Part shown: positions 2,736-20,000 of the stretch, in pieces | Layout: each line of letters opens with the position of its first letter | Position numbering within the stretch: position 1 is the stretch's first letter | Virus record (IMG/VR): IMGVR_UViG_3300008113_000087 | Source: an uncultured virus (IMG/VR IMGVR_UViG_3300008113_000087) | Lineage: Duplodnaviria > Heunggongvirae > Uroviricota > Caudoviricetes | DNA: 20,000 nucleotides | Strand: one strand, 5' to 3' | Notes under the pieces: model-generated | Database searches by the model: none | What the model was told of the DNA's origin: nothing | The model's input: only the letters and a program-made list of their open reading frames with translations | Position numbers and translations under genes: made by a program

Positions 2736-3279
2736 ACTTCTCTCCATGTTTATAAAAAATGTGTGAACCAATCTTAACAGTTCTATTTAGATGATTCCAC
2801 TTTGGGTTCACATAATCAGCGTGGTAAAACAGCGCACCATCTGTATTATCTTTTATGGTATGAGAGTTTACATATAGGTCTAATGCCACATTATATACTT
2901 TTTCATACACATCTTTTTGTCTATCAGAAAAAAGACGTTCTTTATTATAAGCCATAGATCTTTCGCGATCTTGGCAATACCATGAGAATTGACATGTTCT
3001 ATGGCTTCTTTCTTTCACAACAGAGCATATATTGTTTCCAAACTGCCCAGAACGAACACGATTGAGGGTTACTATACCCACTGCTCTTTGACCTTCGATT
3101 GGTTCATATGCTGCTTCGAAAAATATATTATCTGCTAAACACTCTACTTCCGCTCTAGCCTTATTGGTTAATTGATCCGCTGTTACACGAATAGGAAATA
3201 GTGAGTTGTTATTTGCCAACACTATTGTTGTTATTGAAAATACTATCGTTGTTATTATTAGAAAAATTGTTTTGTGCAA
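2644..3279 (-). CDS. SleB-like cell wall hydrolase (Hydrolase_2)
   Basis: CLADNIFFEA..E...GQ.AV..VTLNRV, CQFSW, TDGALFYHADYVNPKW, IGSHIFY motifs; N-terminal signal/TM segment; TTG start with AGGAG SD. Confidence 0.9.
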   Translation of the reverse strand: MHKTIFLIITTIVFSITTIVLANNNSLFPIRVTADQLTNKARAEVECLADNIFFEAAYEPIEGQRAVGIVTLNRVRSGQFGNNICSVVKERSHRTCQFSWYCQDRERSMAYNKERLFSDRQKDVYEKVYNVALDLYVNSHTIKDNTDGALFYHADYVNPKWNHLNRTVKIGSHIFYKHGEKYAHQHDAKIKSRIENERQFVAFVLPSNGGY

Positions 3280-3713: not shown

Positions 3714-5204
3714 TCAATATAAAGCAAGTTTCTTTTTTATGTATTGGTTTTCAAATGGCGCAATTTTATAGACAAGATCATCAGCATGTTGCCTTGTAAA
3801 TGCACTATTTCTAATGGTTTGGATATCTAGACCACTATATGATGCAACTCCCCAAACATCCCACGAATCTAGATATGCATTTTGATTGTCGCCAGTATTT
3901 GCAGACGACCAAGCGACTGCTTTGTCTTTGTTTCCATATTCGTTTTCCCAATTAACACTATATGGATACGCACCATTATGTTTAAAATCTTCCATATCTA
4001 ATTCCGCTGGGATTTCTTTATATCCATATTTAGATAAATCCTCGCCCATGGCTGAGAGTTTGATTGCTCCATCTTGTTCAGATATTTTTTTATGTATTGT
4101 CAATGGATAAAACACCCAATGCTGGTCCATCCAATTTTCTTTAAACCATTTTACAGTATTGTCAAGCGACTCATAAGATTCTCTAGGTAACCCTGTAATC
4201 ATAGACATAGTTGATACATACAATCCAAGTTCTTTATTGAACAGCTCTCTCATTTCTAATGCTGTTTGTTTATTCTTGTCTGGGTGTAAACCCTTTCCAA
4301 TCAGTTTTCCGCTTTCATGATTAAAAGTTTCTACACCATAGTATTGTCCCCAGATGCGCGACTCTAGCAATAATTCTCTATCCCGAATATTATTGTAAAG
4401 TAAATCTAGTCTAACGAATCCAGTGAAATTTGGTTTAAATGACAATCGTTTTACAGCTGATGAAAACTTTATTAACTTCTCTTCATTACTGTTAATAGTT
4501 TCATCTGCGATCGCGTAATTTATAACACCCCACTTATCGTAATTAGATTGGAGTTCGCGATACATGTCTTCTTCAGTTCTTGAGGTATCACCCCTTACAC
4601 CAAGGATCGGATATGAACAATATTTACATTTAAATTTACATCCTCGTTCTAACTCAATAGTCAATACATCAGATGGTAATATGAAATCTCTATCTTCATA
4701 TTCTATTGAGTATGACCCACCAACTGTTTCTGGTGGATAGGCTGGATACATGTGAATCGCATTAATCAACCATCCATTTTTAAGTGGAATACCCTTTATT
4801 TTACCATTAGAGAAAGCATGATTTAGTGCTTCAACAACAGCAAGTTCTCCGTAACCATTAATGTAATAATCAGCATCAAGATCTTTATAGTAAATGTCTT
4901 GCCCACCAAGTATAATTTTTAATTCTGGATATTTTAATCTAATAAAAGAAATTATTGATTTGTATGTTTCATATCTAGATAACCAAGTTATGGAAAATCC
5001 TATCCACTTAATTTGGTTCTGAGAAATTCTTGAGTCTATAAGTTCTACTAATAGATTACTCCTCCAAGCAGGTAAACGATCGATTACCTCAACATCAATA
5101 CCCATAGTTTGTCTGAGATAGTGCGCTATTCTATATGCGCCAGGAGATCTTTCGAGACTTGTCTGCCAACCAAGAGATGTAAATATTAATCCGTTTGCGT
5201 TCAT
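3714..5204 (-). CDS. radical SAM protein with a probable N-terminal cobalamin-binding-like domain
   Basis: ERGCKFKCKYC (CxxxCxxC), ADET, GVET, ITGLPRES; N-terminal GAYRIAHYLR..GFS..IILGG..GYGE as in class B radical SAM enzymes. Confidence 0.85.
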   Translation of the reverse strand: MNANGLIFTSLGWQTSLERSPGAYRIAHYLRQTMGIDVEVIDRLPAWRSNLLVELIDSRISQNQIKWIGFSITWLSRYETYKSIISFIRLKYPELKIILGGQDIYYKDLDADYYINGYGELAVVEALNHAFSNGKIKGIPLKNGWLINAIHMYPAYPPETVGGSYSIEYEDRDFILPSDVLTIELERGCKFKCKYCSYPILGVRGDTSRTEEDMYRELQSNYDKWGVINYAIADETINSNEEKLIKFSSAVKRLSFKPNFTGFVRLDLLYNNIRDRELLLESRIWGQYYGVETFNHESGKLIGKGLHPDKNKQTALEMRELFNKELGLYVSTMSMITGLPRESYESLDNTVKWFKENWMDQHWVFYPLTIHKKISEQDGAIKLSAMGEDLSKYGYKEIPAELDMEDFKHNGAYPYSVNWENEYGNKDKAVAWSSANTGDNQNAYLDSWDVWGVASYSGLDIQTIRNSAFTRQHADDLVYKIAPFENQYIKKKLALY

Positions 5205-5514: not shown

Positions 5515-6225
5515 TTACTTCCAGTATTTAGAATAATCTACATTATTCCAATGCTGTTCATTATTTCGGTATAAGAAGTTTTTAATAAGATACCATGCCA
5601 TTCCAAAATATCCCATCTTCTGAAATCTTCTGCTGTCTTGACCGAAGTAATGTTTCATCAGTTTAAATTTCTTGGTGTCATACATCTTAGACAAAAAGAA
5701 ATCTTCACTGGTACCATACTTCTCGGCAAAGCCACCGAACTCTTCATATTTAGTTTTTCTGGTTAACATAAATGCACCAACAGCGAATGGGACTTTATAT
5801 TGCATAATGCTGTTTACGAAATTAAATATCATGAAACCGATCTGCGCTCTTATGTCACCATCATAGCACTTTACACGCAATCCGATTAAATCCAAATTAT
5901 TTTGTTCTAGTTCATTTACTGCGTCGACTATAACAGTGTCGGAGAAAAATCTCACATCACTATCAATGAATAGAATGTATGGGGTGGTAACAAGTTTAGC
6001 TCCACTGTTTTTAGCAAACGAAACTGGACCACCATCAATAATCTCTACATTCAGATCACCCTTCATTATTTTTATAACTTCTCGGGTATTATCCGTAGAA
6101 CAATCTGCGATGATAATTCTAGTATCACCTATTGATTGCTGGCGCAGATGCATTAACAAATGCGCGATATAGTTCTCTTCGTTTTTACAAGGAACTACAA
6201 TTGTTATTTTATTACTTAATGACAT
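5515..6225 (-). CDS. glycosyltransferase family 2
   Basis: ITIVVPCKNEE, IIIADCSTDNT, ILFIDSD (DxD) and SED motifs. Confidence 0.9.
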   Translation of the reverse strand: MSLSNKITIVVPCKNEENYIAHLLMHLRQQSIGDTRIIIADCSTDNTREVIKIMKGDLNVEIIDGGPVSFAKNSGAKLVTTPYILFIDSDVRFFSDTVIVDAVNELEQNNLDLIGLRVKCYDGDIRAQIGFMIFNFVNSIMQYKVPFAVGAFMLTRKTKYEEFGGFAEKYGTSEDFFLSKMYDTKKFKLMKHYFGQDSRRFQKMGYFGMAWYLIKNFLYRNNEQHWNNVDYSKYWK

Positions 6226-6343
6226 GTGTACGTTTATGTTTCAATGATTTCTTTAATGCTTTTAACCACAGTTTCTTTTCTTTTACTCTATCATGATTGA
6301 CGCATGCTAGATACATCTTCTTCACTATCTCTTTCACTTTCAT
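6212..6343 (-). CDS. small basic hypothetical protein (43 aa)
   Basis: Not in the ORF track. MKVKEIVKKMYLACVNHDRVKEKKLWLKALKKSLKHKRTHVIK with an AAGGAG SD; overlaps both neighbours. Confidence 0.6.
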   Translation of the reverse strand: MKVKEIVKKMYLACVNHDRVKEKKLWLKALKKSLKHKRTHVIK

Positions 6344-7094
6344 TGTCTGTCTCCTTTGTCCACGTTACTATTTCCCAGCGTCCATCATGGTGCTCAACAA
6401 GAGCAGTGCATGATTCAACCCAGTCTCCGTCATTCATATATGTTACACCATCAATGTCTTTAATTTCAGCATGATGAATATGACCACAAATAACTCCATC
6501 GTAACCTCGCTTCTTACAGTATGCTGCAAGATTGCGCTCGAACTGAAATATAAAGTCTACTGCTTTTTTGACTTTATGTTTAAGAAACTTGCTAAGGCTA
6601 AAGTACCCAAAACCCAAACGACGACGAACCCAATTAAATTTATTGTTGAGGCTAAGAACAATGTCATACGCTTTATCTCCTAAGAATGCTATCCAAGGTG
6701 CTAGTCTAGTAATACCATCGAACAAGTCACCATGTGTAACTAGATATCGTTTACCATCCACACCTACATGTTCTGTTTGGTTTTTAATTTCTATCAGACC
6801 AAAAGAAAACCCATATGGTATCATCGGTCTTAAAAACTCATCGTGGTTACCTGCTACGTAGATTACTTTTGTTCCACGTTTAGCGTGACCCAGTATTCTG
6901 CGGACAACATTCGTATGACTCTGCTTCCAGCGCCACTTGTTTTGTTGTATTTTCCAGGCATCAATAATATCACCCACTAGATATAATGTCTCACAGGTGT
7001 TGTGTTTGAGAAAGTTGTTTAACTTTTTGGCTTGACAATCATTGGTACCAAGATGGACATCACTTATAAAAATTGTTCTGTATGTTTTGTCCAT
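6291..7094 (-). CDS. LpxH/YbbF-family metallophosphoesterase, PlcP (phospholipase C)-like
   Basis: ISDVHLG, LVGDIID, AGNHD, THGD.FD, CGHIH, YMNDGDWVESCTALVE motifs. Confidence 0.85.
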   Translation of the reverse strand: MDKTYRTIFISDVHLGTNDCQAKKLNNFLKHNTCETLYLVGDIIDAWKIQQNKWRWKQSHTNVVRRILGHAKRGTKVIYVAGNHDEFLRPMIPYGFSFGLIEIKNQTEHVGVDGKRYLVTHGDLFDGITRLAPWIAFLGDKAYDIVLSLNNKFNWVRRRLGFGYFSLSKFLKHKVKKAVDFIFQFERNLAAYCKKRGYDGVICGHIHHAEIKDIDGVTYMNDGDWVESCTALVEHHDGRWEIVTWTKETDNESERDSEEDVSSMRQS

Positions 7095-12199: not shown

Positions 12200-12679
12200 T
12201 TATTTTCTATATAAGTGGTGGTGAGGATCTTCCTGCGCTTTATAACCATCGGGAGTGCAAAACACCTCCAGCTTTTTATCGTCTGACCAACTCTTAGCAT
12301 AGTCATTATCTACATCACACATAGCCAATGCTTCTTCTCTAGACACTACACGATGGCTGCAAATTAGTTCGGGTAATGCTTCTTGTGAAAACTCTTTTGC
12401 TTCATTCATTGTAACAGTATCTAAAGCCCACTCAGGATTAGAAGCTGGGACTTCAACAAGATAACGCATACGATATGTTTGTAGCGCATCTACCATAACT
12501 AACACAGTCTTAGGTTTTTCTTTTTTCATAAGTGTAAAACTCCCATCTTTGTTATCTACCCAATCAAGTTCATCACCAATGGCGAAGCCAGATTTTTCTA
12601 GCATCTCATCAGTGAATGTAATAAAGTATTCACCATCTTTATCTTGCTCAACTTCAAGTAACCAACTATTTTTACTCAT
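12200..12679 (-). CDS. protein with N-terminal AbrB/MazE-like domain
   Basis: EVEQD.DGEYFITF.DEML...GF.IGDELDW.DNKDGSFTL resembles a swapped-hairpin domain; GGAG SD before ATG 12679. Confidence 0.6.
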   Translation of the reverse strand: MSKNSWLLEVEQDKDGEYFITFTDEMLEKSGFAIGDELDWVDNKDGSFTLMKKEKPKTVLVMVDALQTYRMRYLVEVPASNPEWALDTVTMNEAKEFSQEALPELICSHRVVSREEALAMCDVDNDYAKSWSDDKKLEVFCTPDGYKAQEDPHHHLYRK

Positions 12680-13727
12680 ATTTAATCTCCAACCAATTTG
12701 TTTCTTCAGAAAGAATCTCAATAATTATACCAGCTGATGCAGCATTAGTAATCATATTAGAGAGAACTCCATCACCATACATGTTCGTGCCATAAGATGC
12801 TTTATGGCAAGCATAGGTTGAACCACTGCTCCCATCAAACATAAAGCACTGCCCTTCTTCATACGCTCTCGTGATGCCACTGTTCAGTTTCCATGAATCT
12901 GAACCAGCCCACCCACCATACCAACAAACAACACGTGTATCACCAATCATATAATCAAACAACTCATGCGTATGACCATGTGTCCATAGTTTAATCTGTG
13001 GGCGATCCATAATAAACTCACTTAGATCGCTATGATATCCACCATTCATTATTTGATCATCGCTATATTTTGGATGACAACTCTTGTGACTCGGAGTGTG
13101 GTGTCCAACCACAACAAACTTATCATCATGTTTACCCTCAACAACAGTTTTAATGTAGTCTAACATTTTCTTGTGATCTTCAACAGCATCCTCGGGACAG
13201 AATACTGCTGCTCGAGTTCTGAATGTTGGGTGTTCTGGATTCTCAGGATCATCGTACGATTTAAAGTTGACAACACGATTACTGTTTTCAACACAACGGA
13301 AGTCGTTCATCATTCTACGAATTCCATGAAGTGTCAAAGGATCTTCCTTATTCATGTCAGTCCACAATGTGCCACCGATAAATGTTATGTCGTCAATCTT
13401 AACTGTTTCTTTATCGAGGATGTGTAGGTTCGTAAGGTGTCCAAGACATTTCCTGAGGTGAGGAATAGTATCAGCAAAATCACCATGATAGTGCTCGTGG
13501 TTACCCACAATATAAACCACGTGAGGAAAGACACTAGCACAGTTGCTGAAAAACTCATGATACCGTTTAGACTTTCCAAAGTCCACAATATTATGGGGGT
13601 CGGGAAGCATGAGGTCACGAGCCACACAAATATCACCAGACAAAATAAGGACGTGCGCATTTTCTGTATTCTCCAATACCAATTGACCAAACTCTAAATG
13701 CACATCAGAACAAAGTGCTACTTTCAT
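12672..13727 (-). CDS. calcineurin-like metallophosphoesterase, apparently fused in frame to the C-terminal part of another phage protein
   Basis: SDVHLEF, SGDI, GNHEHY, GGTLWTD, HHTPS and HGHTH motifs; after TRVVC the sequence switches to WYGG.AGSDSWKLNSGIT. Confidence 0.8.
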   Translation of the reverse strand: MKVALCSDVHLEFGQLVLENTENAHVLILSGDICVARDLMLPDPHNIVDFGKSKRYHEFFSNCASVFPHVVYIVGNHEHYHGDFADTIPHLRKCLGHLTNLHILDKETVKIDDITFIGGTLWTDMNKEDPLTLHGIRRMMNDFRCVENSNRVVNFKSYDDPENPEHPTFRTRAAVFCPEDAVEDHKKMLDYIKTVVEGKHDDKFVVVGHHTPSHKSCHPKYSDDQIMNGGYHSDLSEFIMDRPQIKLWTHGHTHELFDYMIGDTRVVCWYGGWAGSDSWKLNSGITRAYEEGQCFMFDGSSGSTYACHKASYGTNMYGDGVLSNMITNAASAGIIIEILSEETNWLEIKYE

Positions 13728-14191
13728 TTTAAATCTCCATACTCGGGGTAGGAAGGACGACACGAATCTAAGTCATATGTCCACTCTAAGACTTTCATCA
13801 TCTTATGTTTAACACGTAGGTTGGGTTGACGATAGCGATCAGTGGGAGTAAATCCCATCATTTCAGCAACTTCGACAACAGCGCCACTGCGACAAATACC
13901 AGCATGACAATGAACAACTACATTCATGTGCTTATCAAGCGCACGACGCAGAAGTTTCACAAGTTGGTCAGCTTGCTCATCGGAAATTTTACATTCATCC
14001 TCATAGGGATCATTGTCTTCAGCATCTAAAAATTCAAATTGATAAACTTCTTTGAAGGGATATTTGACGCAACCAAAAAAGGTTGCGGGATCTTGAATGC
14101 GAATGAGCATAGAGTTTGTTCCTGCGTCCATATGCATACCAGATGCCACATCGGACTTACTCACATTTTCAATGAAACGAACAACACTCAT
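13724..14191 (-). CDS. protein tyrosine/dual-specificity phosphatase
   Basis: VVHCHAGICRS (HCX5R) motif. Confidence 0.85.
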   Translation of the reverse strand: MSVVRFIENVSKSDVASGMHMDAGTNSMLIRIQDPATFFGCVKYPFKEVYQFEFLDAEDNDPYEDECKISDEQADQLVKLLRRALDKHMNVVVHCHAGICRSGAVVEVAEMMGFTPTDRYRQPNLRVKHKMMKVLEWTYDLDSCRPSYPEYGDLK

Positions 14192-14200
14192 ATTATTTCC

Positions 14201-14491
14201 TTACATAATCATACGGAACAAACCAAACGTATCGATAGCAGTTAGCAAGATGTAGTTAGCCAACATGCCAAAAGATTTCCTAGTATAAGCAGCCCAAGCA
14301 TACATAGCACAACCAGCGATCCAAACAGGATAAAGAGCAAGTAGCGGAGGGTTGGGGACTGTGATTGCCATAGTGATTGAGCAACCAATACTGACAGCCC
14401 AAGCAAGCAACTCAACACAAAAACGAAACTTGTTACTGTTCCAATCATTACGAATCCATTCAAAAGTAGGCGCAAACATTTTATCTATCAT
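14201..14491 (-). CDS. small multi-pass membrane protein
   Basis: 96 aa with about three hydrophobic segments; directly downstream of a promoter. Confidence 0.7.
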   Translation of the reverse strand: MIDKMFAPTFEWIRNDWNSNKFRFCVELLAWAVSIGCSITMAITVPNPPLLALYPVWIAGCAMYAWAAYTRKSFGMLANYILLTAIDTFGLFRMIM

Positions 14492-14497
14492 AAGACT

Positions 14498-14526
14498 ATT
14501 ATACTCTCAATCATAATTAAAGTAAA
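14498..14526 (-). promoter_or_regulatory. sigma70-type early promoter
   Basis: TTTACT, 17 nt, TATAAT, 6 nt, ATG (14491). Confidence 0.8.
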
Positions 14527-14532
14527 GGATTA

Positions 14533-14558
14533 TTTAAACCCCTACAAAGTGTAGGGTT
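14533..14558 (-). terminator. hairpin after oxygenase cluster (CCCTAC-N5-GTAGGG)
   Basis: Minus strand reads AACCCTACACTTTGTAGGGGTTT, overlapping the stop codon of 14557-15126. Confidence 0.5.
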
Positions 14559-15126
14559 ATAGAACGTAGTGCTCTTTCTCGATTTCCATGACACCAGTGA
14601 TACGCCAGTCGCTTCCAAGATTCTTCATGTAGTGCTGTGTGAACTCACCATTAAATGTTCGAAACTCACCAGTGTTCCAAACTTTGGATTCGCCATCAAA
14701 CACTAAACATTGATTTGTTGGATCTGGGATGTGTATACCAAAAGAAGTAGTAAACCCTTCTACGTGTTTTCCCATGCTCCCACGTATCCATGACCAAACA
14801 TGACCATCATGATGCACTGGTAACATTTTTCCAGGACGAATAAAATTTATACACATATCAATCATTCCTGGGCATTCGTATGCTTGCGCAACTGTTCTTT
14901 CCCATCCATCAGACCATGGCTGTTGAACTTTTCTTGCGTCAATAATTGGCAGTGCCATAAAGCCATTGGCATTTTCTGGTGGCATCTCATATCGTGAAGC
15001 AGCATCGACACACTTACTATCAATGTCATACTTCAGTTTCCACTCAGCATAATCTTCTAGCATACACTGCATCAACTTTTGTAGTTGATCGTAGTGCTTA
15101 TATTGTACTGGATCACCCAACCACAT
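14557..15126 (-). CDS. Asp/Asn beta-hydroxylase-like 2OG-Fe(II) oxygenase (paralogue 3)
   Basis: NFIRPG..LPVHHD (HxD), distal QHYMKN, WRI. Confidence 0.75.
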   Translation of the reverse strand: MWLGDPVQYKHYDQLQKLMQCMLEDYAEWKLKYDIDSKCVDAASRYEMPPENANGFMALPIIDARKVQQPWSDGWERTVAQAYECPGMIDMCINFIRPGKMLPVHHDGHVWSWIRGSMGKHVEGFTTSFGIHIPDPTNQCLVFDGESKVWNTGEFRTFNGEFTQHYMKNLGSDWRITGVMEIEKEHYVL

Positions 15127-15715
15127 TATTCCACTCCTTCTCGGACAGGTCTATAACACTGCTCACTCGCCATGCATCACATAAGTTCCATACGTAGTGC
15201 GCATAATTTCTGCCATCGAAAGCAGTAATTTCTTTGTTGACATAGGAACGAATGTCATCACCAAATTGTATACCTTGCTTCTCAGTATCGATGGGCTCAA
15301 GCATATCTATACCAATGGCAGCAGTATATCCCTTTGGGTTTGGGAAGTGTTGAGCGATTCTTTCCCACGATCCGAAGTCATTGTGCCATGGTAACTTACC
15401 ACCATTGGGACGAATGAAGTTAATGATTTGTTGATAGAGTCCAGGCAATGTTTGAGTAATCGCCTTTGTTCTTAGCCAGTGATTCGGATACATTGTGTTG
15501 TCAATTTGTCCATCAACGAAAATAGGAACTGCCCACCAGTCATCTTCATAGTCTAGTTTCTGAGATTCTAATTCTGGATACTCAAACTTAAATACGCAGA
15601 CATGTTTTCTCGGATCTGGATGGTCAACGATAAACTCATCGTAATCGAGTTTAAGTGCATCTGCCATCTTCACTAACAGATCGTAGTGTTTATATTTTGT
15701 GGCATCAACGAACAT
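15113..15715 (-). CDS. Asp/Asn beta-hydroxylase-like 2OG-Fe(II) oxygenase (paralogue 2)
   Basis: NFIRPNGGKLPWHND, FDGR..AHYVWN, WRV. Confidence 0.75.
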   Translation of the reverse strand: MFVDATKYKHYDLLVKMADALKLDYDEFIVDHPDPRKHVCVFKFEYPELESQKLDYEDDWWAVPIFVDGQIDNTMYPNHWLRTKAITQTLPGLYQQIINFIRPNGGKLPWHNDFGSWERIAQHFPNPKGYTAAIGIDMLEPIDTEKQGIQFGDDIRSYVNKEITAFDGRNYAHYVWNLCDAWRVSSVIDLSEKEWNNVVG

Positions 15716-16406
15716 AGAGAAGTGCCTCTTTTGTCCAGACAGCGTTTAACTTTTCTTCGTATCCTTCTAGATTAAACTCTGATGCTTTTATATCTACGAC
15801 ACCTGCAATGCGCCACCCATTCGAATGATTCCAACAGTTGTGATGAAAGTTTCTACCCTCAAATATTACCCACTCACCAGTGCGACATCCTCTACGTTCA
15901 CCCTCAAATTCTAACCCACAAAGCGCAGGATCATCAGTGGGAATATCGACGCCAATTGAAACTGTGAAGCCACGCTGAAGATCACCTGTCCATGTATCAA
16001 TGCGTTCCCAACCACCACGATCGTCATGGTAAGGAAGTACTCCTCCTGGTTTTATAAAGTTAACAATCATTTGAAGCAGTCCAGGAATTTTATCAACGTA
16101 CTCAGAGGTCAATGGCCAATTGGGTTTGAATCGTTCATGTAGTTTGCCATCAAGATAAAGTGCTTCAGCATACCATATTTCTCTTGGGTTTGGTTTATCA
16201 ACGAACTGTTCAGGTTTATGGTATTCAACATCAGACACATTGGTCAACTCAGGATACACATCACCATACTCAAACTTTAAAATTTGACAGGCATTCTTTT
16301 CTGGATCATAGCCAGTGGCACGCAGATTCTTTAGATCTAACATCATTCTGCGTGTGAGTTCCTCTAGCACGTTCTCATGTTTATATCTATCAGAATCTAT
16401 CCACAT
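15705..16406 (-). CDS. Asp/Asn beta-hydroxylase-like 2OG-Fe(II) oxygenase (paralogue 1)
   Basis: NFIKPGGVLPYHDD, GEWVIFEGR..HHNCWN, WRI. Confidence 0.75.
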   Translation of the reverse strand: MWIDSDRYKHENVLEELTRRMMLDLKNLRATGYDPEKNACQILKFEYGDVYPELTNVSDVEYHKPEQFVDKPNPREIWYAEALYLDGKLHERFKPNWPLTSEYVDKIPGLLQMIVNFIKPGGVLPYHDDRGGWERIDTWTGDLQRGFTVSIGVDIPTDDPALCGLEFEGERRGCRTGEWVIFEGRNFHHNCWNHSNGWRIAGVVDIKASEFNLEGYEEKLNAVWTKEALLYVR

Positions 16407-16407
16407 C

Positions 16408-17484
16408 TTATACTACCTTTCTACGGTTTCCGTTTCGTTTAACATCTAGTGTGAGACAGTGTATACCACCATCCCAAAAATGATTATGGCGAATGGGTGC
16501 TATGTGACAAGTAATGCCACGTTTATCCAGCATCTCCTGTAGCTTTGGTTGCGCATTACTAATGAATATGTTTTTACTGTCAACCACTAGCACATTGAAG
16601 TCAAAGGCAACTTCTTGAATGTAACCCTTCCACTCGCTCATCCATATATTTAGATAATCGTAGGAAAACTTACCAGTGGACTGTGTCAATGCACTATCAT
16701 ATTGAGCAAAGTCAGGTGTATCGACAACATCATGAAGATAGATAACTTCCTTACCTTTTAGATAGTAGGGCGACCAAAATTCTTTTTCAGCGAACACCGT
16801 ATTGTCATCTGTCATGAACCAACCATGGTCAATGTGTCCAAGGTTTTCTTGAACAGTGCCTCTGTTTTCTAGGATACGTGCATCGGGGAACTGTCTCCGC
16901 ATCCACTCTAGACCGAGATTGTTACCTGGACCTTTGGTATTGGTAATGAGGGCATCGCCACATTTAAACATGGTGGCAGTGTGCCATAGCAAACGATCGG
17001 CAAGTATATTATGATAGCGACCCACTGATTCACTGTACCACATACTATTGTCAGCAAAGTTTTCAAGTAGAGGTGGTGGCATACTGCACCAATCAAATCC
17101 CTGTTCAAACAGTTCACGGAATATATCATAGTAAGCCAACGACTCTAGATAACGATCGGGCATGCTGGTGTATGTTTGAACAATCTTCTCACCATAGACC
17201 ATGTATTGATCACGTGGTACGATTGGTGCCACAGGATTGTTGATGTTAAATCCTGCCAACTGTATCTTACGTTCAAAGGGTAAGTTCTTGGGACGATGAA
17301 CCTTTACACCCATGGCTTCTAGTTGAAGCGAAAGGGCATCGAGATCTTCCCGTGTTTCTTTTAAAATTGTGTGTAGTAGCGGAAGACTGCGCTCATCGGT
17401 AATGACGTTGTCATAATAATCTTCAGGGGGACAGGTGCCAACAATGATTTCAGTTAGCGGATCGTACTCAGTCCATATTGCCAT
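16408..17484 (-). CDS. amidinotransferase (glycine/inosamine-phosphate amidinotransferase family)
   Basis: WTEYDPLTEIIVG, GVKVHRP, PRD, N.LGLEWMRR, GHID, GGIHCLTLDVKR (catalytic His and Cys); GGAG SD before ATG 17484. Confidence 0.88.
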   Translation of the reverse strand: MAIWTEYDPLTEIIVGTCPPEDYYDNVITDERSLPLLHTILKETREDLDALSLQLEAMGVKVHRPKNLPFERKIQLAGFNINNPVAPIVPRDQYMVYGEKIVQTYTSMPDRYLESLAYYDIFRELFEQGFDWCSMPPPLLENFADNSMWYSESVGRYHNILADRLLWHTATMFKCGDALITNTKGPGNNLGLEWMRRQFPDARILENRGTVQENLGHIDHGWFMTDDNTVFAEKEFWSPYYLKGKEVIYLHDVVDTPDFAQYDSALTQSTGKFSYDYLNIWMSEWKGYIQEVAFDFNVLVVDSKNIFISNAQPKLQEMLDKRGITCHIAPIRHNHFWDGGIHCLTLDVKRNGNRRKVV

Positions 17485-17929
17485 AGTCTTCTCCAAGTAT
17501 CTCTTTTAAATATTGCTCATCCCAGTGGGAATAATAACTGGTGCGTCGGAGTGCAACACGTGCATCTCTTAACTTATACTTAGGTTGACAGAGGAGAAGG
17601 TTATGTTTGCCGTTGTTGGTGACGACACCATTAATATGAGTAGTTCGATCCTTATGATCAGGAAGGAACACCATCTCAGGGTGGGTTGCGTTTAGATCCG
17701 TTGCCATTACATGTAGATGTTCCTGACTCAACGAATCAGGGAACACATAAATCACCAACTCAAAGTTTAGATTCTCAGGAACAGCCACCTCGCCATTCAC
17801 ATGGACCACGCTGAACTTGGCTCTCTTTGCGAAGGGGCATACTGACATGCCACCCAACGCATCACGGGAAGCACTTAACGCATCGATCCATTCCTGTATA
17901 TCTTGACTAAATTGCTCGTTCAATGACAT
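17468..17929 (-). CDS. DUF1415-like protein
   Basis: W.......LGG..VCPFAK motif near the N-terminus; DH motif; YYSHW at the C-terminus. Confidence 0.55.
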   Translation of the reverse strand: MSLNEQFSQDIQEWIDALSASRDALGGMSVCPFAKRAKFSVVHVNGEVAVPENLNFELVIYVFPDSLSQEHLHVMATDLNATHPEMVFLPDHKDRTTHINGVVTNNGKHNLLLCQPKYKLRDARVALRRTSYYSHWDEQYLKEILGEDYGNMD

Positions 17930-18263
17930 CGTAATCTAGATCGGTAGGATGGAAATAATAGTGAAGACAACCGAGAACGGCATCTTCATTGAATTTCTTA
18001 CAAGAGAATAGATCAAAGAACACCTTACCATCATCACAGAAGTGCACTGTAAGTGATGACGTGGTAATGAGTTGTTGCAGTGTATAACCATTCTTCTCAC
18101 CCAGTTCACCGAAGTAAGTAACTACTGGCTCACCATGGGCAATCATTTCTGCAGCTGTCACAACATCGGTATTGAAGGCAAGAATTGCTTCCTCATCCTT
18201 CACGTTATCATTACACCCTTTCAGGTTAGCCATTAGGTGGTAGCCCCATGGTTCAAACTTCAT
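17907..18263 (-). CDS. S-adenosylmethionine decarboxylase (class 1b, SpeD-like) proenzyme homologue
   Basis: GYHL..NL.GC, GEP....FG, GYT..QLITTSSLTVH (cleavage region), FFDLFSCK.F. Confidence 0.8.
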   Translation of the reverse strand: MKFEPWGYHLMANLKGCNDNVKDEEAILAFNTDVVTAAEMIAHGEPVVTYFGELGEKNGYTLQQLITTSSLTVHFCDDGKVFFDLFSCKKFNEDAVLGCLHYYFHPTDLDYDVIERAI

Positions 18264-18507
18264 AGCCTTGCTCCTTTACGAATCGTTTTATAAAACCTAT
18301 TGCTTCTTGCGCCTCTTCGGGTCCACACCCTGTGGCTTCGCATATTTCCATTTGCTGTCTAGGGGCATCTTGGGTTAAAAATTCTCGACAATATCCAAGA
18401 GAAAAGCATAGACGACCTTCCTCATCAATGGACCGCCATATCTCTAATTCACCACGTACGCTTACAAAGGCATACCATGAACTTTCACCCCATCGTGCGT
18501 AACTCAT
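18253..18507 (-). CDS. hypothetical protein
   Basis: 84 aa, MSYARW..S.WY.F N-terminus; coupled overlaps. Confidence 0.65.
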   Translation of the reverse strand: MSYARWGESSWYAFVSVRGELEIWRSIDEEGRLCFSLGYCREFLTQDAPRQQMEICEATGCGPEEAQEAIGFIKRFVKEQGYEV

Positions 18508-18734
18508 TGTAGACTCCTAGTGTCACCATCAGTACCCTCATCCCATGCTTCCAACTTGGCTCGAGTCTCATCGTCAAGGTTATCCCAATCAACAGGGGTA
18601 GACTTCTCCATAAGTTCTCCACTCTCCACTTGCTGTGTAAGCTGAGCAATGAGTGAGTCTAATTCTTCCTGAGTGCCATCGAAGTCATCGAAGCATCCTG
18701 GGGCAAATTCAATTCTTAGTTTCTTTGTGGTCAT
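18504..18734 (-). CDS. acidic hypothetical phage protein
   Basis: FAPGCFDDFDGTQEELD motif; start reassigned to ATG 18734. Confidence 0.7.
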   Translation of the reverse strand: MTTKKLRIEFAPGCFDDFDGTQEELDSLIAQLTQQVESGELMEKSTPVDWDNLDDETRAKLEAWDEGTDGDTRSLQ

Positions 18735-18894
18735 TTTTATATATCCAATCAGGTGAGTACATATCTTTATGGGGATCTTCACGTTCCTCATATACCTTAT
18801 ACTTATACACTAAGGCATTCTCAGTAATTGGACGTGATGGCTCAAGCGCCCAACTAGAGGTGCTCAAAGCAAATAAAGTGAGTATTATATCCAT
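18709..18894 (-). CDS. hypothetical protein (61 aa), possible signal peptide
   Basis: ATG 6 nt after a consensus -10; hydrophobic N-terminus ending SWA. Confidence 0.55.
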   Translation of the reverse strand: MDIILTLFALSTSSWALEPSRPITENALVYKYKVYEEREDPHKDMYSPDWIYKNDHKETKN

Positions 18895-18900
18895 GCGTTC

Positions 18901-18929
18901 ATTATACCTGTATAGTGAATAAATGTCAA
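18901..18929 (-). promoter_or_regulatory. sigma70 consensus promoter
   Basis: TTGACA (18929-18924), 17 nt, TATAAT (18906-18901). Confidence 0.85.
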
Positions 18930-19026
18930 TGCGACTTCCAGCGATTCAAAAAATATTGCAGGATTTTTTTCTGAGGATCCTAAACCGATTCAGCATTGGA
19001 TATGCGACCTTTGCGAAGAAGAAAAT

Positions 19027-19069
19027 AGATTGGGGTCTAAAGCCCATATTTCAGACCCGACCCCAATCT
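19027..19069. other. intergenic stem-loop
   Basis: 11-bp perfect inverted repeat AGATTGGGGTC / GACCCCAATCT with a 21-nt loop. Confidence 0.55.
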
Positions 19070-19086
19070 CCAATTATAAAGTCGTT

Positions 19087-19323
19087 TTATCCCTTCATAA
19101 TCCAATCACCAACCACACGCTTAAACTGTGTGGGCGACCCTACCTTCTTACCGTTCACACGTATGTCATACAGACTGCGGACTTCTACTTTACCTAGACT
19201 ACACTCTATGGAGTAGCCATCCTTACCCTTGGTCCATTCACCATATGTCATACCAGAGAAGAACAGGGTATCCTTTAGTTCTTCCTTGGCAGTTTTTCTG
19301 CTAAACCAGATGTTCATCATCAA
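19087..19323 (-). CDS. hypothetical protein
   Basis: 78-aa ORF on the coding strand. Confidence 0.6.
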   Translation of the reverse strand: MMMNIWFSRKTAKEELKDTLFFSGMTYGEWTKGKDGYSIECSLGKVEVRSLYDIRVNGKKVGSPTQFKRVVGDWIMKG

Positions 19324-19368
19324 ACCCCAACACTGTTATTTTACTCTCGTCAATCTTTGGAAGCAAAT

Positions 19369-19575
19369 TTATTTACGGATGGATATGTCATAGGTATGCT
19401 TGCGCATCTTGCTATCATATAAGGTTATGGTGCTATGGATGCCCACCGCATTAAACATGTCCTCATACAGCTGGCTCAATGCCACGTTGAGGTTACTATC
19501 ACTTCCAACACGACGCTCACGCAGAGCACGCTTAGATGTATAGAAGGATACGCCATTCACTTTTACTTCAATCAT
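19369..19575 (-). CDS. hypothetical protein
   Basis: 68-aa ORF with a TAATG overlap and GGAG SD. Confidence 0.65.
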   Translation of the reverse strand: MIEVKVNGVSFYTSKRALRERRVGSDSNLNVALSQLYEDMFNAVGIHSTITLYDSKMRKHTYDISIRK

Positions 19576-19799
19576 TATACTGTCTCCATATCTAAAGCGG
19601 AAATACGATCAATTGCAAAGGGTACGTATTGAACCAACTCCAAGCCAAGAGAACGAATCTCTTTAGCATTGGCAAAGTTACGAGTAGAAAGATTCTTCAA
19701 TGCTTTCCTTGCAGCTTTCTCGGTATTATAGGTACCGTAAGAAACGATCCCAAACAAAGGATCTTTGGTAAGAGACCGAATTTCGTAGACTTGATTCAT
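19575..19799 (-). CDS. hypothetical protein
   Basis: GGAGG SD before ATG 19799 (MNQVYEI...). Confidence 0.65.
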   Translation of the reverse strand: MNQVYEIRSLTKDPLFGIVSYGTYNTEKAARKALKNLSTRNFANAKEIRSLGLELVQYVPFAIDRISALDMETV

Positions 19800-19810
19800 A
19801 TATCCTCCGA

Positions 19811-19999
19811 TTAAGCAGTCAACATGTATGTAGCAAGATCTTTCCACTGGTCGTTGCTGGCACGAACCTTAGACACAGAGATCAGCGTACGCAAAGAGAT
19901 CTCTTTTACTTCTTCCTTGATTTCACGAATCAGACCCAAGGCATCAGCGATGATTTCCTTAGAGTACTCAGGCAGGAACTCTTCAGTCAGAGCGATAGT
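19811..19999 (-). CDS. C-terminal fragment, possibly the helical lid of an AAA+ ATPase
   Basis: Open frame from the window edge: ...EFLPEYSKEIIADALGLIREIKEEVKEISLRTLISVSKVRASNDQWKDLATYMLTA*. SLRT resembles a sensor-2 motif. Confidence 0.5.
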   Translation of the reverse strand, partial: TIALTEEFLPEYSKEIIADALGLIREIKEEVKEISLRTLISVSKVRASNDQWKDLATYMLTA

Positions 20000-20000
20000 T

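What the first reader, a model, noticed from the sequence alone, without database searches (positions are those of the whole stretch)
14557..18263. Phage six-gene enzyme cluster: AdoMetDC-like + DUF1415-like + amidinotransferase + three tandem 2OG-Fe(II) hydroxylases
Seen: six minus-strand genes that overlap or are 1 nt apart, downstream of the consensus promoter at 18901-18929 and closed by a hairpin at about 14540, so probably one operon. Catalytic motifs are intact (amidinotransferase GHID and GGIHC; HxD...H...R in each oxygenase). Known: amidinotransferases (AGAT, StrB1, SxtG, CyrA) move the amidino group of Arg onto an amine. AdoMetDC-fold enzymes make dcSAM or decarboxylate Arg/Orn. AspH-like oxygenases hydroxylate peptides, lipids or small molecules. 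Inference: this is a dedicated pathway making a guanidinylated, multiply hydroxylated amine. It could modify virion proteins, DNA bases or the host surface, or yield a small-molecule effector. I know of no described phage pathway with this composition.
Basis: partly seen in the sequence, partly recalled or inferred. Interest (0 to 1): 0.85.

Follow-up and report, generated by a model that had tools for sequence, protein, structure and literature searches.

The report
Phage arginine-derived amine tailoring operon
A freshwater phage carries a tight operon of six enzyme genes that probably builds a hydroxylated guanidine-bearing amine from arginine, and one of the six may be a new, very small heme enzyme.

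Summary
Six minus-strand genes at 14557-18263 overlap or lie 1 nt apart. They follow a perfect sigma-70 promoter, with two further small genes in between, and end at a 7-bp hairpin.

The family calls are largely right:
- g1 is a divergent SpeD/AdoMetDC-fold protein that keeps Ser/His/Cys.
- g3 is an amidinotransferase nearest to the polyamine enzyme HsvA. It keeps Cys/His, but an invariant His replaces the Asp of the AGAT triad.
- g4-g6 are three AspH-like 2OG oxygenases with HxD...H...R.
- g2, called "DUF1415-like", belongs to a mostly viral family with an invariant Cys-Pro. It is weakly linked to DUF6875 (cytochrome P422, thiolate-heme). Its model is nearest to the heme guanidine N-hydroxylase AglA, but only at Z 6.2.

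The full six-gene set recurs in one lineage only (3 of 26 loci). The sub-modules recur widely. The g2+amidinotransferase pair is in 39 of 80 g2-centred loci, usually with an aminotransferase or a SpeD-like gene. Natural SpeD-g2 and halogenase-g2 fusions exist.

My best reading (0.45) is a small-molecule pathway: an amine is made, amidinated from arginine, then hydroxylated. The product is unknown. Protein modification is the main rival. This is a new variant of the known phage tailoring-enzyme islands.

The parts
18901..18929 (-). Sigma-70-type promoter, TTGACA-17-TATAAT
   Evidence: 12 of 12 consensus positions. It is the best of the 24 promoter-like sites found in 13500-20000.
18504..18791 (-). 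Small ORF u2 (95 aa as listed). First gene after the promoter. No family hit.
   Evidence: ORF. No Pfam or PHROG hit. Conserved at 62-64% identity in L002-L004.
18253..18507 (-). Small ORF u1 (84 aa). It overlaps u2 by 4 nt and g1 by 11 nt. No family hit.
   Evidence: ORF. No Pfam or PHROG hit. 39% identity in L002-L004.
17907..18263 (-). g1: divergent class-1b SpeD/AdoMetDC-fold protein, a putative pyruvoyl-dependent decarboxylase of unknown substrate
   Evidence: Pfam AdoMet_dc E 1e-12, 48.8 bits against a cut-off of 25. PHROG 3125. Ser69, His74 and Cys88 align with those of the phiN3 SpeD. The motif is TTSS rather than ESH.
17468..17929 (-). g2 (p153): member of a mostly viral family with an invariant Cys31-Pro32. 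Candidate small thiolate-heme oxygenase.
   Evidence: No Pfam hit; PHROG 10325 of unknown function. 521 representative clusters match the profile. C31, P32 and Q115 are invariant in 48 sequences. Weak DUF6875 and DUF1415 links. AF2 model at pLDDT 87, nearest to AglA 9ub3 at Z 6.2 with 141 residues aligned. Natural fusions to a SpeD domain and to a halogenase.
16408..17496 (-). g3: amidinotransferase homologue (HsvA/StrB1/AGAT/SxtG type) with His172 in place of the triad Asp
   Evidence: PDB phmmer hits: HsvA 2e-25, StrB1 5e-23, AGAT 1e-20, SxtG 1e-19. A family profile raises HsvA to 1e-38. Invariant D96, H172, H221, D223 and C347.
15705..16406 (-). g4: AspH-like Fe(II)/2OG oxygenase
   Evidence: Pfam Asp_Arg_Hydrox E 8e-10. 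AF2 model at pLDDT 89.9. Foldseek top hits are human AspH, E 8e-10. H127, D129, H189 and R199 are present.
15113..15715 (-). g5: paralogue of g4, Fe(II)/2OG oxygenase
   Evidence: No Pfam hit. 33-34% identical to g4-type genes in tblastn, E 6e-35 to 4e-39. The HxD...H...R columns are conserved.
14557..15126 (-). g6: paralogue of g4 and g5, Fe(II)/2OG oxygenase
   Evidence: Pfam Asp_Arg_Hydrox E 0.005, 17.1 bits, below the cut-off of 22.6. 29-37% identical to g4 and g5. The HxD...H...R columns are conserved.
14540..14556 (-). Hairpin directly after the g6 stop codon. Possible weak terminator or RNA-end stabiliser.
   Evidence: Sequence. -10 kcal/mol, z -2.18. Not called as a terminator. A promoter-like site at 14526-14498 follows it.

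Best explanation
The operon is an auxiliary small-molecule pathway of a freshwater phage. It is probably transcribed by the host RNA polymerase from a consensus promoter. It takes arginine-related metabolites and makes a hydroxylated, guanidine-bearing amine.

Proposed order (every step is inferred from family membership; no chemistry is shown):
1. g1 self-cleaves at Ser69 to form a pyruvoyl group. It then decarboxylates an amino acid (Arg, Orn or SAM are the known substrates of this fold) and so supplies a primary amine.
2. g3 takes the amidino group of L-arginine onto Cys347 and passes it to that amine. Its closest characterised relative, HsvA, does this with polyamines.
3. g2 is a small Cys-ligated heme protein related to the P422 and YqcI/YcgG enzymes. 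It oxidises the product. Guanidine N-hydroxylation is the reaction of its nearest structural match.
4. The three diverged 2OG oxygenases g4-g6 add further hydroxyl groups or carry out successive oxidations.

In related phages the amine-supplying step seems to be a class III aminotransferase instead of g1. Halogenases, radical SAM enzymes and methyltransferases vary around the fixed g2+g3 core. This is the pattern of a diversifying tailoring pathway.
For: Shown here:
- Tight co-directional packing behind one consensus promoter.
- The whole block is syntenic in L002-L004 and continuous in a DNA contig from another freshwater study.
- RNA-library contigs from two studies bridge g1/g2 and g2/g3.
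- Catalytic residues are conserved in g1, g3 and g4-g6.
- HsvA is the best solved relative of g3. HsvA amidinates spermidine using arginine (PMC6187163, passages read).
- g2 lies with g3 in 20 of 26 amidinotransferase loci and in 39 of the 80 best g2 loci.
- Of those 39, 28 hold a class III aminotransferase, 11 a SpeD-like gene, 4 both and 4 neither.
- A SpeD-g2 fusion (P0280) and a halogenase-g2 fusion (L065) tie g2 to enzymes that act on amino-acid-type substrates.
- The g2 family has an invariant Cys-Pro. It gives weak DUF6875 hits over the heme-binding region in 9 of 31 members, and one relative reaches the Pfam cut-off.
- DUF6875 is a thiolate-heme family whose ligand Cys sits in RxGxVCP (preprint 10.64898/2025.12.11.692455).
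- The nearest solved fold is AglA, a thiolate-heme guanidine N-hydroxylase (PMC12866846).
- No structural gene is adjacent. The neighbours are phosphatases, MazG, PhoH and small ORFs.
Against: - No product and no activity are known for any of the six proteins or their close relatives.
- The six-gene set is confined to one lineage: 3 of 26 loci. The g4 family has only 8 clusters in 5.8 billion proteins.
- g3 lacks the Asp of the AGAT triad; it has His172. It also gets no Pfam hit, so its chemistry may differ from amidino transfer.
- g1 lacks the canonical ESH motif and scores far below the NCBIfam equivalog cut-off, 24.8 against 75.65 bits. One related SpeD-like gene (L065) has lost Ser, His and Cys altogether, so in that locus the protein cannot act as a decarboxylase.
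- The AglA match (Z 6.2, rmsd 4.1) lies in the range that the tool says unrelated models often reach. Foldseek found nothing, and a sequence profile did not find AglA.
- The P422 Arg of RxGxVCP is absent from g2.
- AspH-family enzymes classically act on proteins and lipids.
- In 38 of 77 g2 loci analysed, g2 sits beside baseplate-type genes with no amidinotransferase.
- No ferredoxin or reductase partner is encoded in the window.
Confidence: 0.45

Rival explanations
1. The enzymes modify a protein or peptide after translation rather than a free small molecule. The target would be a virion, tail-fibre or baseplate component or a host surface protein. The changes would be hydroxylation of Asp/Asn/other residues by the AspH-like oxygenases, amidination of Lys-type amines by g3, and oxidation by g2.
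For: - Human AspH, a protein hydroxylase, is the closest solved fold of g4.
- In T4-like cyanophages g2 homologues lie directly upstream of the baseplate wedge genes. The same holds in 38 of 77 g2 loci analysed.
- In cyanophage S-SCSM2R the amidinotransferase ORF266 and the neighbouring 2OG oxygenase ORF269 were detected in purified virions by mass spectrometry (PMC12801897, passages read).
- Earlier notes of this scan read similar oxygenase/halogenase cassettes as tail-fibre tip tailoring. I did not check those notes.
Against: - No structural gene, precursor-like peptide or Cys-rich ORF lies in or next to this operon.
- The promoter is a host-type consensus, not a late-gene context.
- A pyruvoyl decarboxylase and, in relatives, a class III aminotransferase act on free amino acids and amines.
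- By my recall, no amidinotransferase is known to act on proteins.
- The S-SCSM2R authors themselves considered those two proteins unlikely to be structural.
Confidence: 0.25
2. The genes are independent auxiliary metabolic genes that happen to sit together in a hypervariable island. g1 simply boosts polyamine supply, as an AdoMetDC, ADC or ODC like other phage SpeD homologues. The oxygenases and g3 act on unrelated host targets, and there is no common product.
For: - Phage SpeD homologues act alone as AdoMetDC, ADC or ODC (PMC9992855, section 6 part 1 read).
- The closest annotated relative of g1 is the Sinorhizobium phage phiN3 SpeD at 30.5% identity, which that paper found to be a functional AdoMetDC.
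- The gene content around the g2+g3 core varies greatly between contigs.
- Canonical SpeD occurs next to g2 without an amidinotransferase in L075 and L077.
Against: - Translationally coupled overlaps join all six genes.
- The block is conserved as a unit down to 57-85% protein identity.
- The same gene families recur around g2+g3 in diverged contigs.
- Natural fusions of g2 with a SpeD domain and with a halogenase exist.
- The SpeD-like genes beside g2+g3 form their own TTS(S/N) motif group, distinct from the canonical ESH forms.
Confidence: 0.15
3. The pathway tailors a sugar, aminocyclitol or nucleotide-linked substrate. g3 would act like the inosamine-phosphate amidinotransferase StrB1. The product would decorate the host envelope, the phage DNA or a glycan.
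For: - StrB1 is the second-best solved relative of g3, E 5e-23.
- In S-SCSM2R the amidinotransferase lies next to KdsA/KdsB and glycosyltransferase genes.
- In Campylobacter phage F379 it lies among radical SAM genes and a nucleotide-diphospho-sugar transferase.
- The window holds a GT2 glycosyltransferase (5515-6225) next to a B12-radical SAM gene (3714-5204). Homologues of that radical SAM gene sit between g2 and g3 in other contigs.
- Two earlier notes of this scan favoured sugar- or amine-type substrates for related islands (unchecked).
Against: - No sugar-nucleotide enzyme lies inside the operon.
- The glycosyltransferase is more than 8 kb away, with unrelated genes between.
- The S-SCSM2R and Campylobacter-phage homologues are only 24-27% identical to g3 and keep the canonical Asp, so they may be a different functional group.
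Confidence: 0.1

Closest known systems
HsvA of Erwinia amylovora / Pseudomonas syringae (polyamine amidinotransferase of the phevamine pathway; PDB 5wpi)
   Same: It is the best solved relative of g3, E 2e-25 with the single sequence and 1e-38 with the family profile. The PRD, HID and G-x-HC active-site segments are shared. It works with a polyamine-type amine and arginine as donor, which fits a neighbouring SpeD-fold gene.
   Different: g3 has an invariant His172 where HsvA, StrB1 and AGAT have the Asp of FDAAD/N. There are no ATP-grasp partners here. The partners are a Cys-Pro protein and three 2OG oxygenases. The middle third of the protein does not align.
Cyanophage tandem dioxygenase / tryptophan-halogenase arrays (Syn9 gp41-54; Iyer, Abhiman, de Souza and Aravind 2010, PMC2938197)
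   Same: They are phage-encoded arrays of several diverged 2OG dioxygenases with no scaffold-making gene. The authors proposed that they make amino-acid-derived metabolites by successive hydroxylations (passages read). Relatives of this operon do carry Trp-halogenase-type genes.
   Different: That paper mentions neither an amidinotransferase nor an AdoMetDC homologue; both terms occur 0 times in the text. Here the fixed core is g2 plus the amidinotransferase, the oxygenases are all of one AspH-like family, and this operon has no halogenase.
Phage SpeD/AdoMetDC homologues (Li et al. 2023, PMC9992855; PMC10407285)
   Same: g1 is a small class-1b AdoMetDC-fold protein with the Ser, His and Cys needed for a pyruvoyl enzyme. 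Phage homologues are shown to be AdoMetDC, arginine decarboxylase or ornithine decarboxylase.
   Different: g1 is only about 31% identical to the nearest annotated one and carries TTSS instead of ESH. It found no solved structure by sequence. It is linked to an amidinotransferase, which neither paper mentions (0 occurrences). No spermidine synthase or agmatinase lies beside it, unlike in Microcystis phage MaAM05.
Non-canonical thiolate-heme oxygenases: YqcI/YcgG family (AglA, DcsA, GntA) and cytochrome P422 (DUF6875)
   Same: These are small alpha/beta sandwich proteins with a four-stranded sheet and a Cys ligand that follows the first helix. The g2 model has four strands, flanking helices and an invariant Cys-Pro after helix 1. 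AglA is the top structural match, with 141 of 153 residues aligned. DUF6875 hits cover the Cys region. Some P422 genes sit beside Trp halogenases, as g2 relatives do.
   Different: g2 is about 140-150 aa, against 243 aa for AglA and a 178-position DUF6875 model. It lacks the Arg of RxGxVCP and the long substrate loop. The window protein itself has no Pfam hit, and Z 6.2 is not decisive. Heme binding is untested.
Synechococcus phage S-SCSM2R ORF266-270 (amidinotransferase followed by 2OG oxygenases; PMC12801897)
   Same: In a cultured phage an amidinotransferase is followed directly by four ORFs of about 225-246 aa, two of them annotated as 2OG oxygenases. Products of both kinds were detected by mass spectrometry.
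   Different: It is only 24% identical to g3 and keeps the canonical Asp. Its g2 homologue lies about 156 kb away, beside the baseplate genes. No SpeD-like gene is adjacent. No function has been tested.

Membership tests
Amidinotransferases (AGAT / StrB1 / HsvA / SxtG) | Significant sequence similarity to solved members over both halves of the fold | tested here: met
   phmmer hits: HsvA 2e-25, StrB1 5e-23, AGAT 1e-20, SxtG 1e-19. The family profile gives 1e-38 to 1e-27. The N- and C-terminal parts align. The stretch from about residue 240 to 290 does not.
Amidinotransferases (AGAT / StrB1 / HsvA / SxtG) | Catalytic Cys (AGAT Cys407) and His (AGAT His303), plus the guanidino-binding Asp170 and Asp305 | tested here: met
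   C347 (GGIHC), H221 and D223 (GHID) and D96 (PRD) align with these residues. All are invariant in 22 family members. The AGAT numbering is counted from the alignment. The roles of the residues are recalled.
Amidinotransferases (AGAT / StrB1 / HsvA / SxtG) | Asp of the Cys-His-Asp triad (AGAT Asp254; first D of FDAAD) | tested here: not met
   Three independent HMMER alignments, to HsvA, StrB1 and AGAT, place the invariant His172 (WHTAT) at this position. The Campylobacter-phage and S-SCSM2R homologues keep the Asp.
Amidinotransferases (AGAT / StrB1 / HsvA / SxtG) | Match to a curated family model (Pfam or NCBIfam) | tested here: not met
   No Pfam family at E up to 0.01 and no NCBIfam family at E up to 0.1. 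Only PHROG 25854, of unknown function, matches.
Amidinotransferases (AGAT / StrB1 / HsvA / SxtG) | Arginine-dependent amidino transfer to an amine | not testable with these tools
   This needs an enzyme assay.
Class 1b AdoMetDC/SpeD pyruvoyl enzymes | Pfam PF02675 above the curated cut-off | tested here: met
   48.8 bits against a cut-off of 25, covering model positions 1-106 of 107.
Class 1b AdoMetDC/SpeD pyruvoyl enzymes | Self-processing Ser, with the conserved His and Cys | tested here: met
   S69, H74 and C88 are invariant in the alignment with the phiN3 and MaAM05 SpeD proteins. They are conserved in 12 of 13 SpeD-like genes found beside g2; L065 lacks all three.
Class 1b AdoMetDC/SpeD pyruvoyl enzymes | Canonical E-S-H processing motif and equivalog-level similarity to AdoMetDC | tested here: not met
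   The motif is T-T-S-S. NCBIfam TIGR03330 scores 24.8 bits against a cut-off of 75.65. No solved structure is found by sequence at E up to 1. That ESH is the usual motif is seen in L033 and L075 and is otherwise recalled.
AspH-like Fe(II)/2OG oxygenases (PF05118) | Family model above the cut-off | tested here: inconclusive
   g4 scores 39.3 bits against 22.6, which is met. g6 scores 17.1 bits, below the cut-off. g5 has no hit. g5 and g6 are homologous to g4, with tblastn E from 1e-18 to 1e-39.
AspH-like Fe(II)/2OG oxygenases (PF05118) | [quoted passage not shown] | tested here: met
   H127, D129 and H189 are invariant and R199 nearly invariant in 16 sequences of all three paralogue groups. 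The g4 model has pLDDT 89.9. Foldseek top hits are human AspH, E 8e-10, probability 1.0. The role of R199 is inferred.
Cytochrome P422 (DUF6875, PF21780) | Family model above the cut-off | tested here: not met
   The window protein has 0 families even at E up to 10. 9 of 31 close relatives give weak hits, best E 0.0018. One more distant family member, P0380, reaches 24.6 bits against 24.5, but only over model positions 3-65 of 178.
Cytochrome P422 (DUF6875, PF21780) | Heme-ligand Cys within RxGxVCP | tested here: inconclusive
   g2 reads L-G-G-M-S-V-C-P. V-C-P and an upstream Gly are present, the Arg is absent and the spacing differs by one residue (motif). Cys31-Pro32 is invariant in 48 sequences.
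YqcI/YcgG heme guanidine N-hydroxylases (AglA type) | Four-stranded-sheet sandwich fold with a thiolate-ligated heme | tested here: inconclusive
   AglA 9ub3_A is the top VIA match: Z 6.2, rmsd 4.1, 141 residues aligned, next hit Z 4.1. That Z is within the range common for unrelated models. Foldseek found no hit at E up to 0.001. A sequence profile did not find AglA at E up to 10. I could not check whether Cys31 superposes on Cys44. Heme binding is not testable here.
DUF1415 (PF07209) | Family model above the cut-off | tested here: not met
   The window protein and its 30 close relatives give no hit. 2 of 32 distant family members give sub-threshold hits, 17.7 and 20.4 bits against 26. Atlas look-alike clusters carry DUF1415 on 17-18% of members.

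The most novel reading that the evidence does not exclude
g2 founds a large, almost purely viral branch of the newly recognised non-P450 thiolate-heme oxygenases (P422 and YqcI/YcgG type). The branch has 521 clusters at 50% identity and is stripped down to about 140 residues. Together with an atypical Cys-His-His amidinotransferase it forms the fixed core of a diversifying phage pathway that makes N-hydroxylated guanidines from arginine during infection. Such compounds would be a class of virus-made metabolites that nobody has looked for. They might be nitric-oxide- or hydroxyurea-like effectors, or DNA-condensing polycations. The viral halogenases of the VirX1 type, whose natural substrate is unknown, would act on the same scaffold.
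Probability: 0.25. Interest if true: 0.85.

Novelty: new variant of a known kind. Interest (0 to 1): 0.64.

Why it matters
- Phages are known to carry arrays of oxygenases and halogenases, but no product or natural substrate has been found for any of them. The iodinating halogenase VirX1 is listed without one (review PMC8407142).
- This operon is compact and has no scaffold gene. Its chemistry is unusually constrained: an amine maker, an arginine-dependent amidino donor enzyme and four oxygenases. That makes it a good entry point for finding the first such phage metabolite by heterologous expression.
- It also offers a concrete test of whether a large viral protein family belongs to the thiolate-heme enzymes described only in 2025. 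That family is present in cultured cyanophages such as S-PM2 and Syn1.
- It offers a natural amidinotransferase variant with His in place of the triad Asp.

Tried and rejected
- DNA search of 14400-18400 against 50,697 phage records (blastn): no match.
- tblastn of g4 against the same records: no match.
- The window's own assembly is not held. The nearest record, G001, shares only a 72-base stretch of the queried region.
- Foldseek of the g2 model against the PDB: nothing at E up to 0.001.
- PDB sequence search with the wider g2 profile: only chance-level hits, the best a thiaminase II at E 0.009. AglA was not found.
- hhalign of the g2 family against the 173-aa ORF upstream of the Campylobacter phage F379 amidinotransferase: no relation, probability 0.4%.
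- Complex prediction of g1 with g2: no verdict, score 0.00 in two runs with controls not run. This is no evidence either way.
The single distant member P0380 gave one 22-residue chance-like match in a Spirochaete MAG. The cellular range of the family is therefore not established.
- A family search for YqcI_YcgG could only be run on G001 and the controls and gave no usable sequences. As a result I could not run a profile-profile test of g2 against bona fide YqcI/YcgG, DUF6875 or DUF1415 alignments.
- Parts of the operon carry no RNA-library contig, for example 14505-15509 in X23. This says nothing about expression.
- The papers on the HsvA and SxtG structures (PMC5766935, PMC7362304) are not held. 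Residue roles in AGAT are therefore recalled, or taken from a review passage.
- I considered agmatine deiminase for g3, because it has a GGxHC-like ending. I rejected it because every significant solved relative is an amidinotransferase.
- I considered a HIT/GalT-like nucleotidyl transferase for g2, because of CPFA and HLH. I rejected it because the HLH is not conserved and no such fold match appeared.
- Two paper searches failed on term syntax.

Full report
**1. What is in the sequence**

The window is phage DNA. It encodes PhoH, MazG, a RecB-type exonuclease, endolysins and a ClpP-type protease. G+C is 34-43%.

Six ORFs lie head to tail on the minus strand between 14557 and 18263:

| Gene | Coordinates | Length |
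|---|---|---|
| g1 | 17907-18263 | 118 aa |
| g2 | 17468-17929 | 153 aa |
| g3 | 16408-17496 | 362 aa |
| g4 | 15705-16406 | 233 aa |
| g5 | 15113-15715 | 200 aa |
| g6 | 14557-15126 | 189 aa |

- Neighbouring genes overlap by 11-29 nt or are 1 nt apart.
- Two more small ORFs, 18504-18791 and 18253-18507, overlap each other and g1. They fill the space up to a promoter at 18929-18901 that matches the sigma-70 consensus in 12 of 12 positions. The likely transcription unit therefore has eight genes.
- Directly after the g6 stop codon there is a 7-bp G+C-rich hairpin. It folds at -10 kcal/mol with z -2.2. Its T tail is poor, and the terminator scan did not report it.
- A promoter-like site at 14526-14498 precedes the next gene.

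**2. Families**

*g1.* It matches Pfam AdoMet_dc well above the cut-off, but it is divergent.
- It found no solved structure by sequence.
- It scores far below the NCBIfam AdoMetDC equivalog cut-off.
- Its nearest annotated phage relatives are Sinorhizobium phage SpeD proteins at about 31% identity.
- The Ser that becomes the pyruvoyl group, and the conserved His and Cys, are present. The local motif is TTSS instead of ESH.
- Phage SpeD homologues have been shown to be AdoMetDC, arginine decarboxylase or ornithine decarboxylase (PMC9992855, section 6 part 1 read; PMC10407285, passages). The substrate of g1 therefore cannot be read from the fold.

*g3.* It has no Pfam or NCBIfam hit, but it is clearly an amidinotransferase homologue. 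All seven significant PDB hits are HsvA, StrB1, AGAT or SxtG.
- The PRD, GHID and GGIHC segments align with AGAT Asp170, His303/Asp305 and Cys407. They are invariant in 22 family members.
- The Asp of the AGAT triad (Asp254, the first D of FDAAD) is replaced by an invariant His172 in three independent alignments.
- More distant phage homologues keep that Asp.

*g4-g6.* They are paralogues, 29-37% identical to each other. All have HxD...H...N...R conserved. g4 matches Pfam Asp_Arg_Hydrox. Its model (pLDDT 89.9) is closest to human AspH, with Foldseek E 8e-10. This particular oxygenase family is rare: 8 clusters in 5.8 billion proteins.

**3. The 153-aa protein g2**

- It has no Pfam hit even at E 10. 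Its PHROG is unannotated.
- Its family is large and almost entirely viral or metagenomic. A word-indexed search found 161 clusters. A full profile search found 521 representatives at E up to 0.001.
- Across 48 diverse members only Cys31, Pro32 and Gln115 are invariant.
- 9 of 31 close relatives give weak hits to DUF6875. One distant member reaches that model's cut-off over the N-terminal 65 positions, which include the Cys. Two others hit DUF1415 below threshold.
- Atlas look-alike clusters carry DUF1415, DUF6875 or both on 11-23% of their members.
- A December 2025 preprint renames DUF6875 as cytochrome P422. It describes a thiolate-heme family of tryptophan hydroxylases and C-S bond formers with a four-stranded-sheet sandwich fold. 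The ligand Cys sits in RxGxVCP, and some genes lie next to Trp halogenases (10.64898/2025.12.11.692455; abstract, passages and part 1 of section 7 read).
- g2 reads LGGMSVCP at this position.
- The AF2 model of g2 (pLDDT 87, four strands plus helices) has no Foldseek match. In the Foldseek-independent search its top hit is AglA: Z 6.2, 141 of 153 residues aligned, next hit Z 4.1.
- AglA is the prototype of the YqcI/YcgG heme enzymes that N-hydroxylate guanidines. It too has a four-stranded sandwich and a Cys ligand (PMC12866846; abstract and passages).

Each of these signals is weak on its own, and the tool warns that Z 6 is common for unrelated models. Together with the invariant Cys-Pro they make a small thiolate-heme oxygenase the best available reading. 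I put it at about 0.4.

**4. Co-occurrence**

*Amidinotransferase-centred loci.* 26 viral contigs were found.
- All six genes plus the flanking genes are syntenic in only 3, L002-L004, at 57-85% protein identity.
- g2 is present in 20 of 26. It is directly adjacent in 15 and one gene away in 5. One of the six misses, L020, starts at the amidinotransferase and so cannot be scored.

*g2-centred loci.* The best 80 of 451 were taken. Several are the same contigs as above or near-identical copies. They fall into two contexts.
- In 38 of the 77 I could analyse, g2 is followed by an 82-aa gene, a 133-aa gene and a 640-aa gene. This is the arrangement seen upstream of the baseplate wedge genes in Syn1 and S-SCSM2R.
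- In 39 of 80, g2 lies with the amidinotransferase. Of these 39:

| Gene within the locus | Loci of 39 |
|---|---|
| Class III aminotransferase | 28 |
| SpeD-like gene | 11 |
| Both of the above | 4 |
| Neither | 4 |
| Trp-halogenase-type gene | 18 |
| AspH-like oxygenase of the g4 type | 11 |
| B12-radical SAM gene | 6 |

These counts come, and Pfam checks on a subset are. The loci are related to each other, so the counts describe the data and are not independent events.

*Natural fusions.* Two exist. P0280 is an AdoMet_dc domain followed by a g2 domain. L065 carries a 658-aa ORF with a Trp-halogenase domain followed by a g2 domain. In L065 the neighbouring SpeD-like gene has lost Ser, His and Cys.

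*Cultured phages.*
- Campylobacter phages carry a distant amidinotransferase among radical SAM genes.
- Cyanophage S-SCSM2R carries one followed by 2OG oxygenases. Products of both kinds were seen in purified virions (PMC12801897, passages).

**5. Occurrence and expression**

- The operon's sequence words occur in metagenome runs of 18 studies. Their labels include freshwater, riverine and "fungus metagenome".
- One DNA contig from a different freshwater study covers 14439-18973 without a break at about 96% identity.
- Two metatranscriptome runs from two studies hold short contigs, 95-99% alike, that lie in g1, g2, g3 and g4. They bridge the g1/g2 and g2/g3 junctions.
- These are contigs from RNA libraries. 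DNA carry-over cannot be excluded and no strand is known, so this is only a weak hint of transcription.

**6. Explanation**

The most economical reading is a small-molecule pathway built around arginine.
- A SpeD-fold decarboxylase, or an aminotransferase in relatives, supplies a primary amine.
- The HsvA-like enzyme moves an amidino group from arginine onto it.
- The candidate heme protein and three 2OG oxygenases then oxidise it.

The consensus host-type promoter and the non-structural neighbourhood fit an early auxiliary function. I give this reading 0.45. The rivals are:
- Protein tailoring (0.25). It is supported by the protein-hydroxylase ancestry of AspH, by the baseplate context of g2 in T4-like phages, and by the virion proteome of S-SCSM2R.
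- Unrelated auxiliary genes that merely sit together (0.15).
- A sugar or nucleotide substrate (0.10).

The points against my own reading:
- No chemistry is shown.
- The amidinotransferase has an altered triad.
- g1 is atypical and can be a dead enzyme in relatives.
- The heme assignment of g2 rests on weak signals.
- No redox partner is encoded nearby.

**7. Comparison with what is known, and novelty**

- Tandem dioxygenase and halogenase arrays in cyanophages were described and assigned to amino-acid-derived secondary metabolism in 2010 (PMC2938197, passages).
- Phage SpeD homologues were characterised in 2023.
- A cyanophage halogenase, VirX1, has been characterised on unnatural substrates only (review PMC8407142, passages).
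- Neither the Syn9 paper nor the two phage polyamine papers, as searched by term, mentions an amidinotransferase. I did not search the halogenase review for that term.
- My two literature searches on phage amidinotransferases returned 5 and 6 papers. I read passages of two of them. Only the S-SCSM2R genome paper names such genes in a phage, and it gives no functional data.
- Earlier notes of this scan describe larger phage tailoring islands that include amidinotransferases, radical SAM enzymes and halogenases. I confirmed that such gene sets surround the g2+g3 core in related contigs. I did not test their other claims.

I therefore class the operon as a new variant of a known kind. The system type is known. 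What has not been described, as far as these searches reach:
- The fixed core of a Cys-Pro protein plus an atypical amidinotransferase.
- The SpeD link and the natural fusions.
- The possible membership of g2 in the new thiolate-heme enzymes.

Noticed in passing
window 3714-5204 (-) and 5515-6225 (-): A 496-aa B12-binding radical SAM gene lies next to a GT2 glycosyltransferase. The radical SAM protein is 36% identical over its full length (E 5e-85) to the one that sits between g2 and the amidinotransferase in L013. Homologues are in 11 of the fetched loci, several of which are the same contigs fetched twice. It may belong to the same pathway although it lies about 9 kb away.
   Followed up: partly
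window 14201-14491 (-): A 96-aa hydrophobic protein lies just downstream of the operon, behind its own promoter-like site. In DNA run X1 the summed contig depth over 14103-14504 is about 8-15 times that of the flanks (1104 and 558 against about 73), and many contigs end there. The gene therefore seems to be shared by many different phages or genomes in that sample.
   Followed up: no
window 12672-14191 (-) and 6291-7094 (-): A dual-specificity-phosphatase-like protein (155 aa) lies here together with two calcineurin-like metallophosphoesterases (363 and 267 aa). In L002-L004 the 363-aa protein matches in two pieces about 240 nt apart. The gene may be split or carry an insert there, or the window ORF may be a fusion.
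   Followed up: no
L065:2250-4591: A related viral contig encodes a Trp-halogenase domain fused to a g2 domain in one 658-aa ORF. Directly upstream is a SpeD-like gene that has lost the Ser, His and Cys needed for a pyruvoyl enzyme.
   Followed up: partly
L005-L019, upstream of the g2 homologue: In 15 of 77 g2 loci a protein of about 203 aa with a weak N-terminal NAD(P)-binding (Epimerase/adh_short) signal lies next to g2. A protein of about 440-470 aa with no Pfam hit often precedes it. The small one could be a reductase partner. The window has neither.
   Followed up: no
L033 (Microcystis phage MaAM05, 245231-251578): This cultured phage carries two adjacent SpeD homologues followed by spermidine synthase and agmatinase. 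It looks like a complete phage-borne arginine-to-spermidine route.
   Followed up: no
window 2163-3279 (-): The ORF of the ClpP-type protease (2163-2771) and that of a cell-wall hydrolase (2644-3279) overlap by 128 nt as listed. One of the two start codons is probably further downstream.
   Followed up: no
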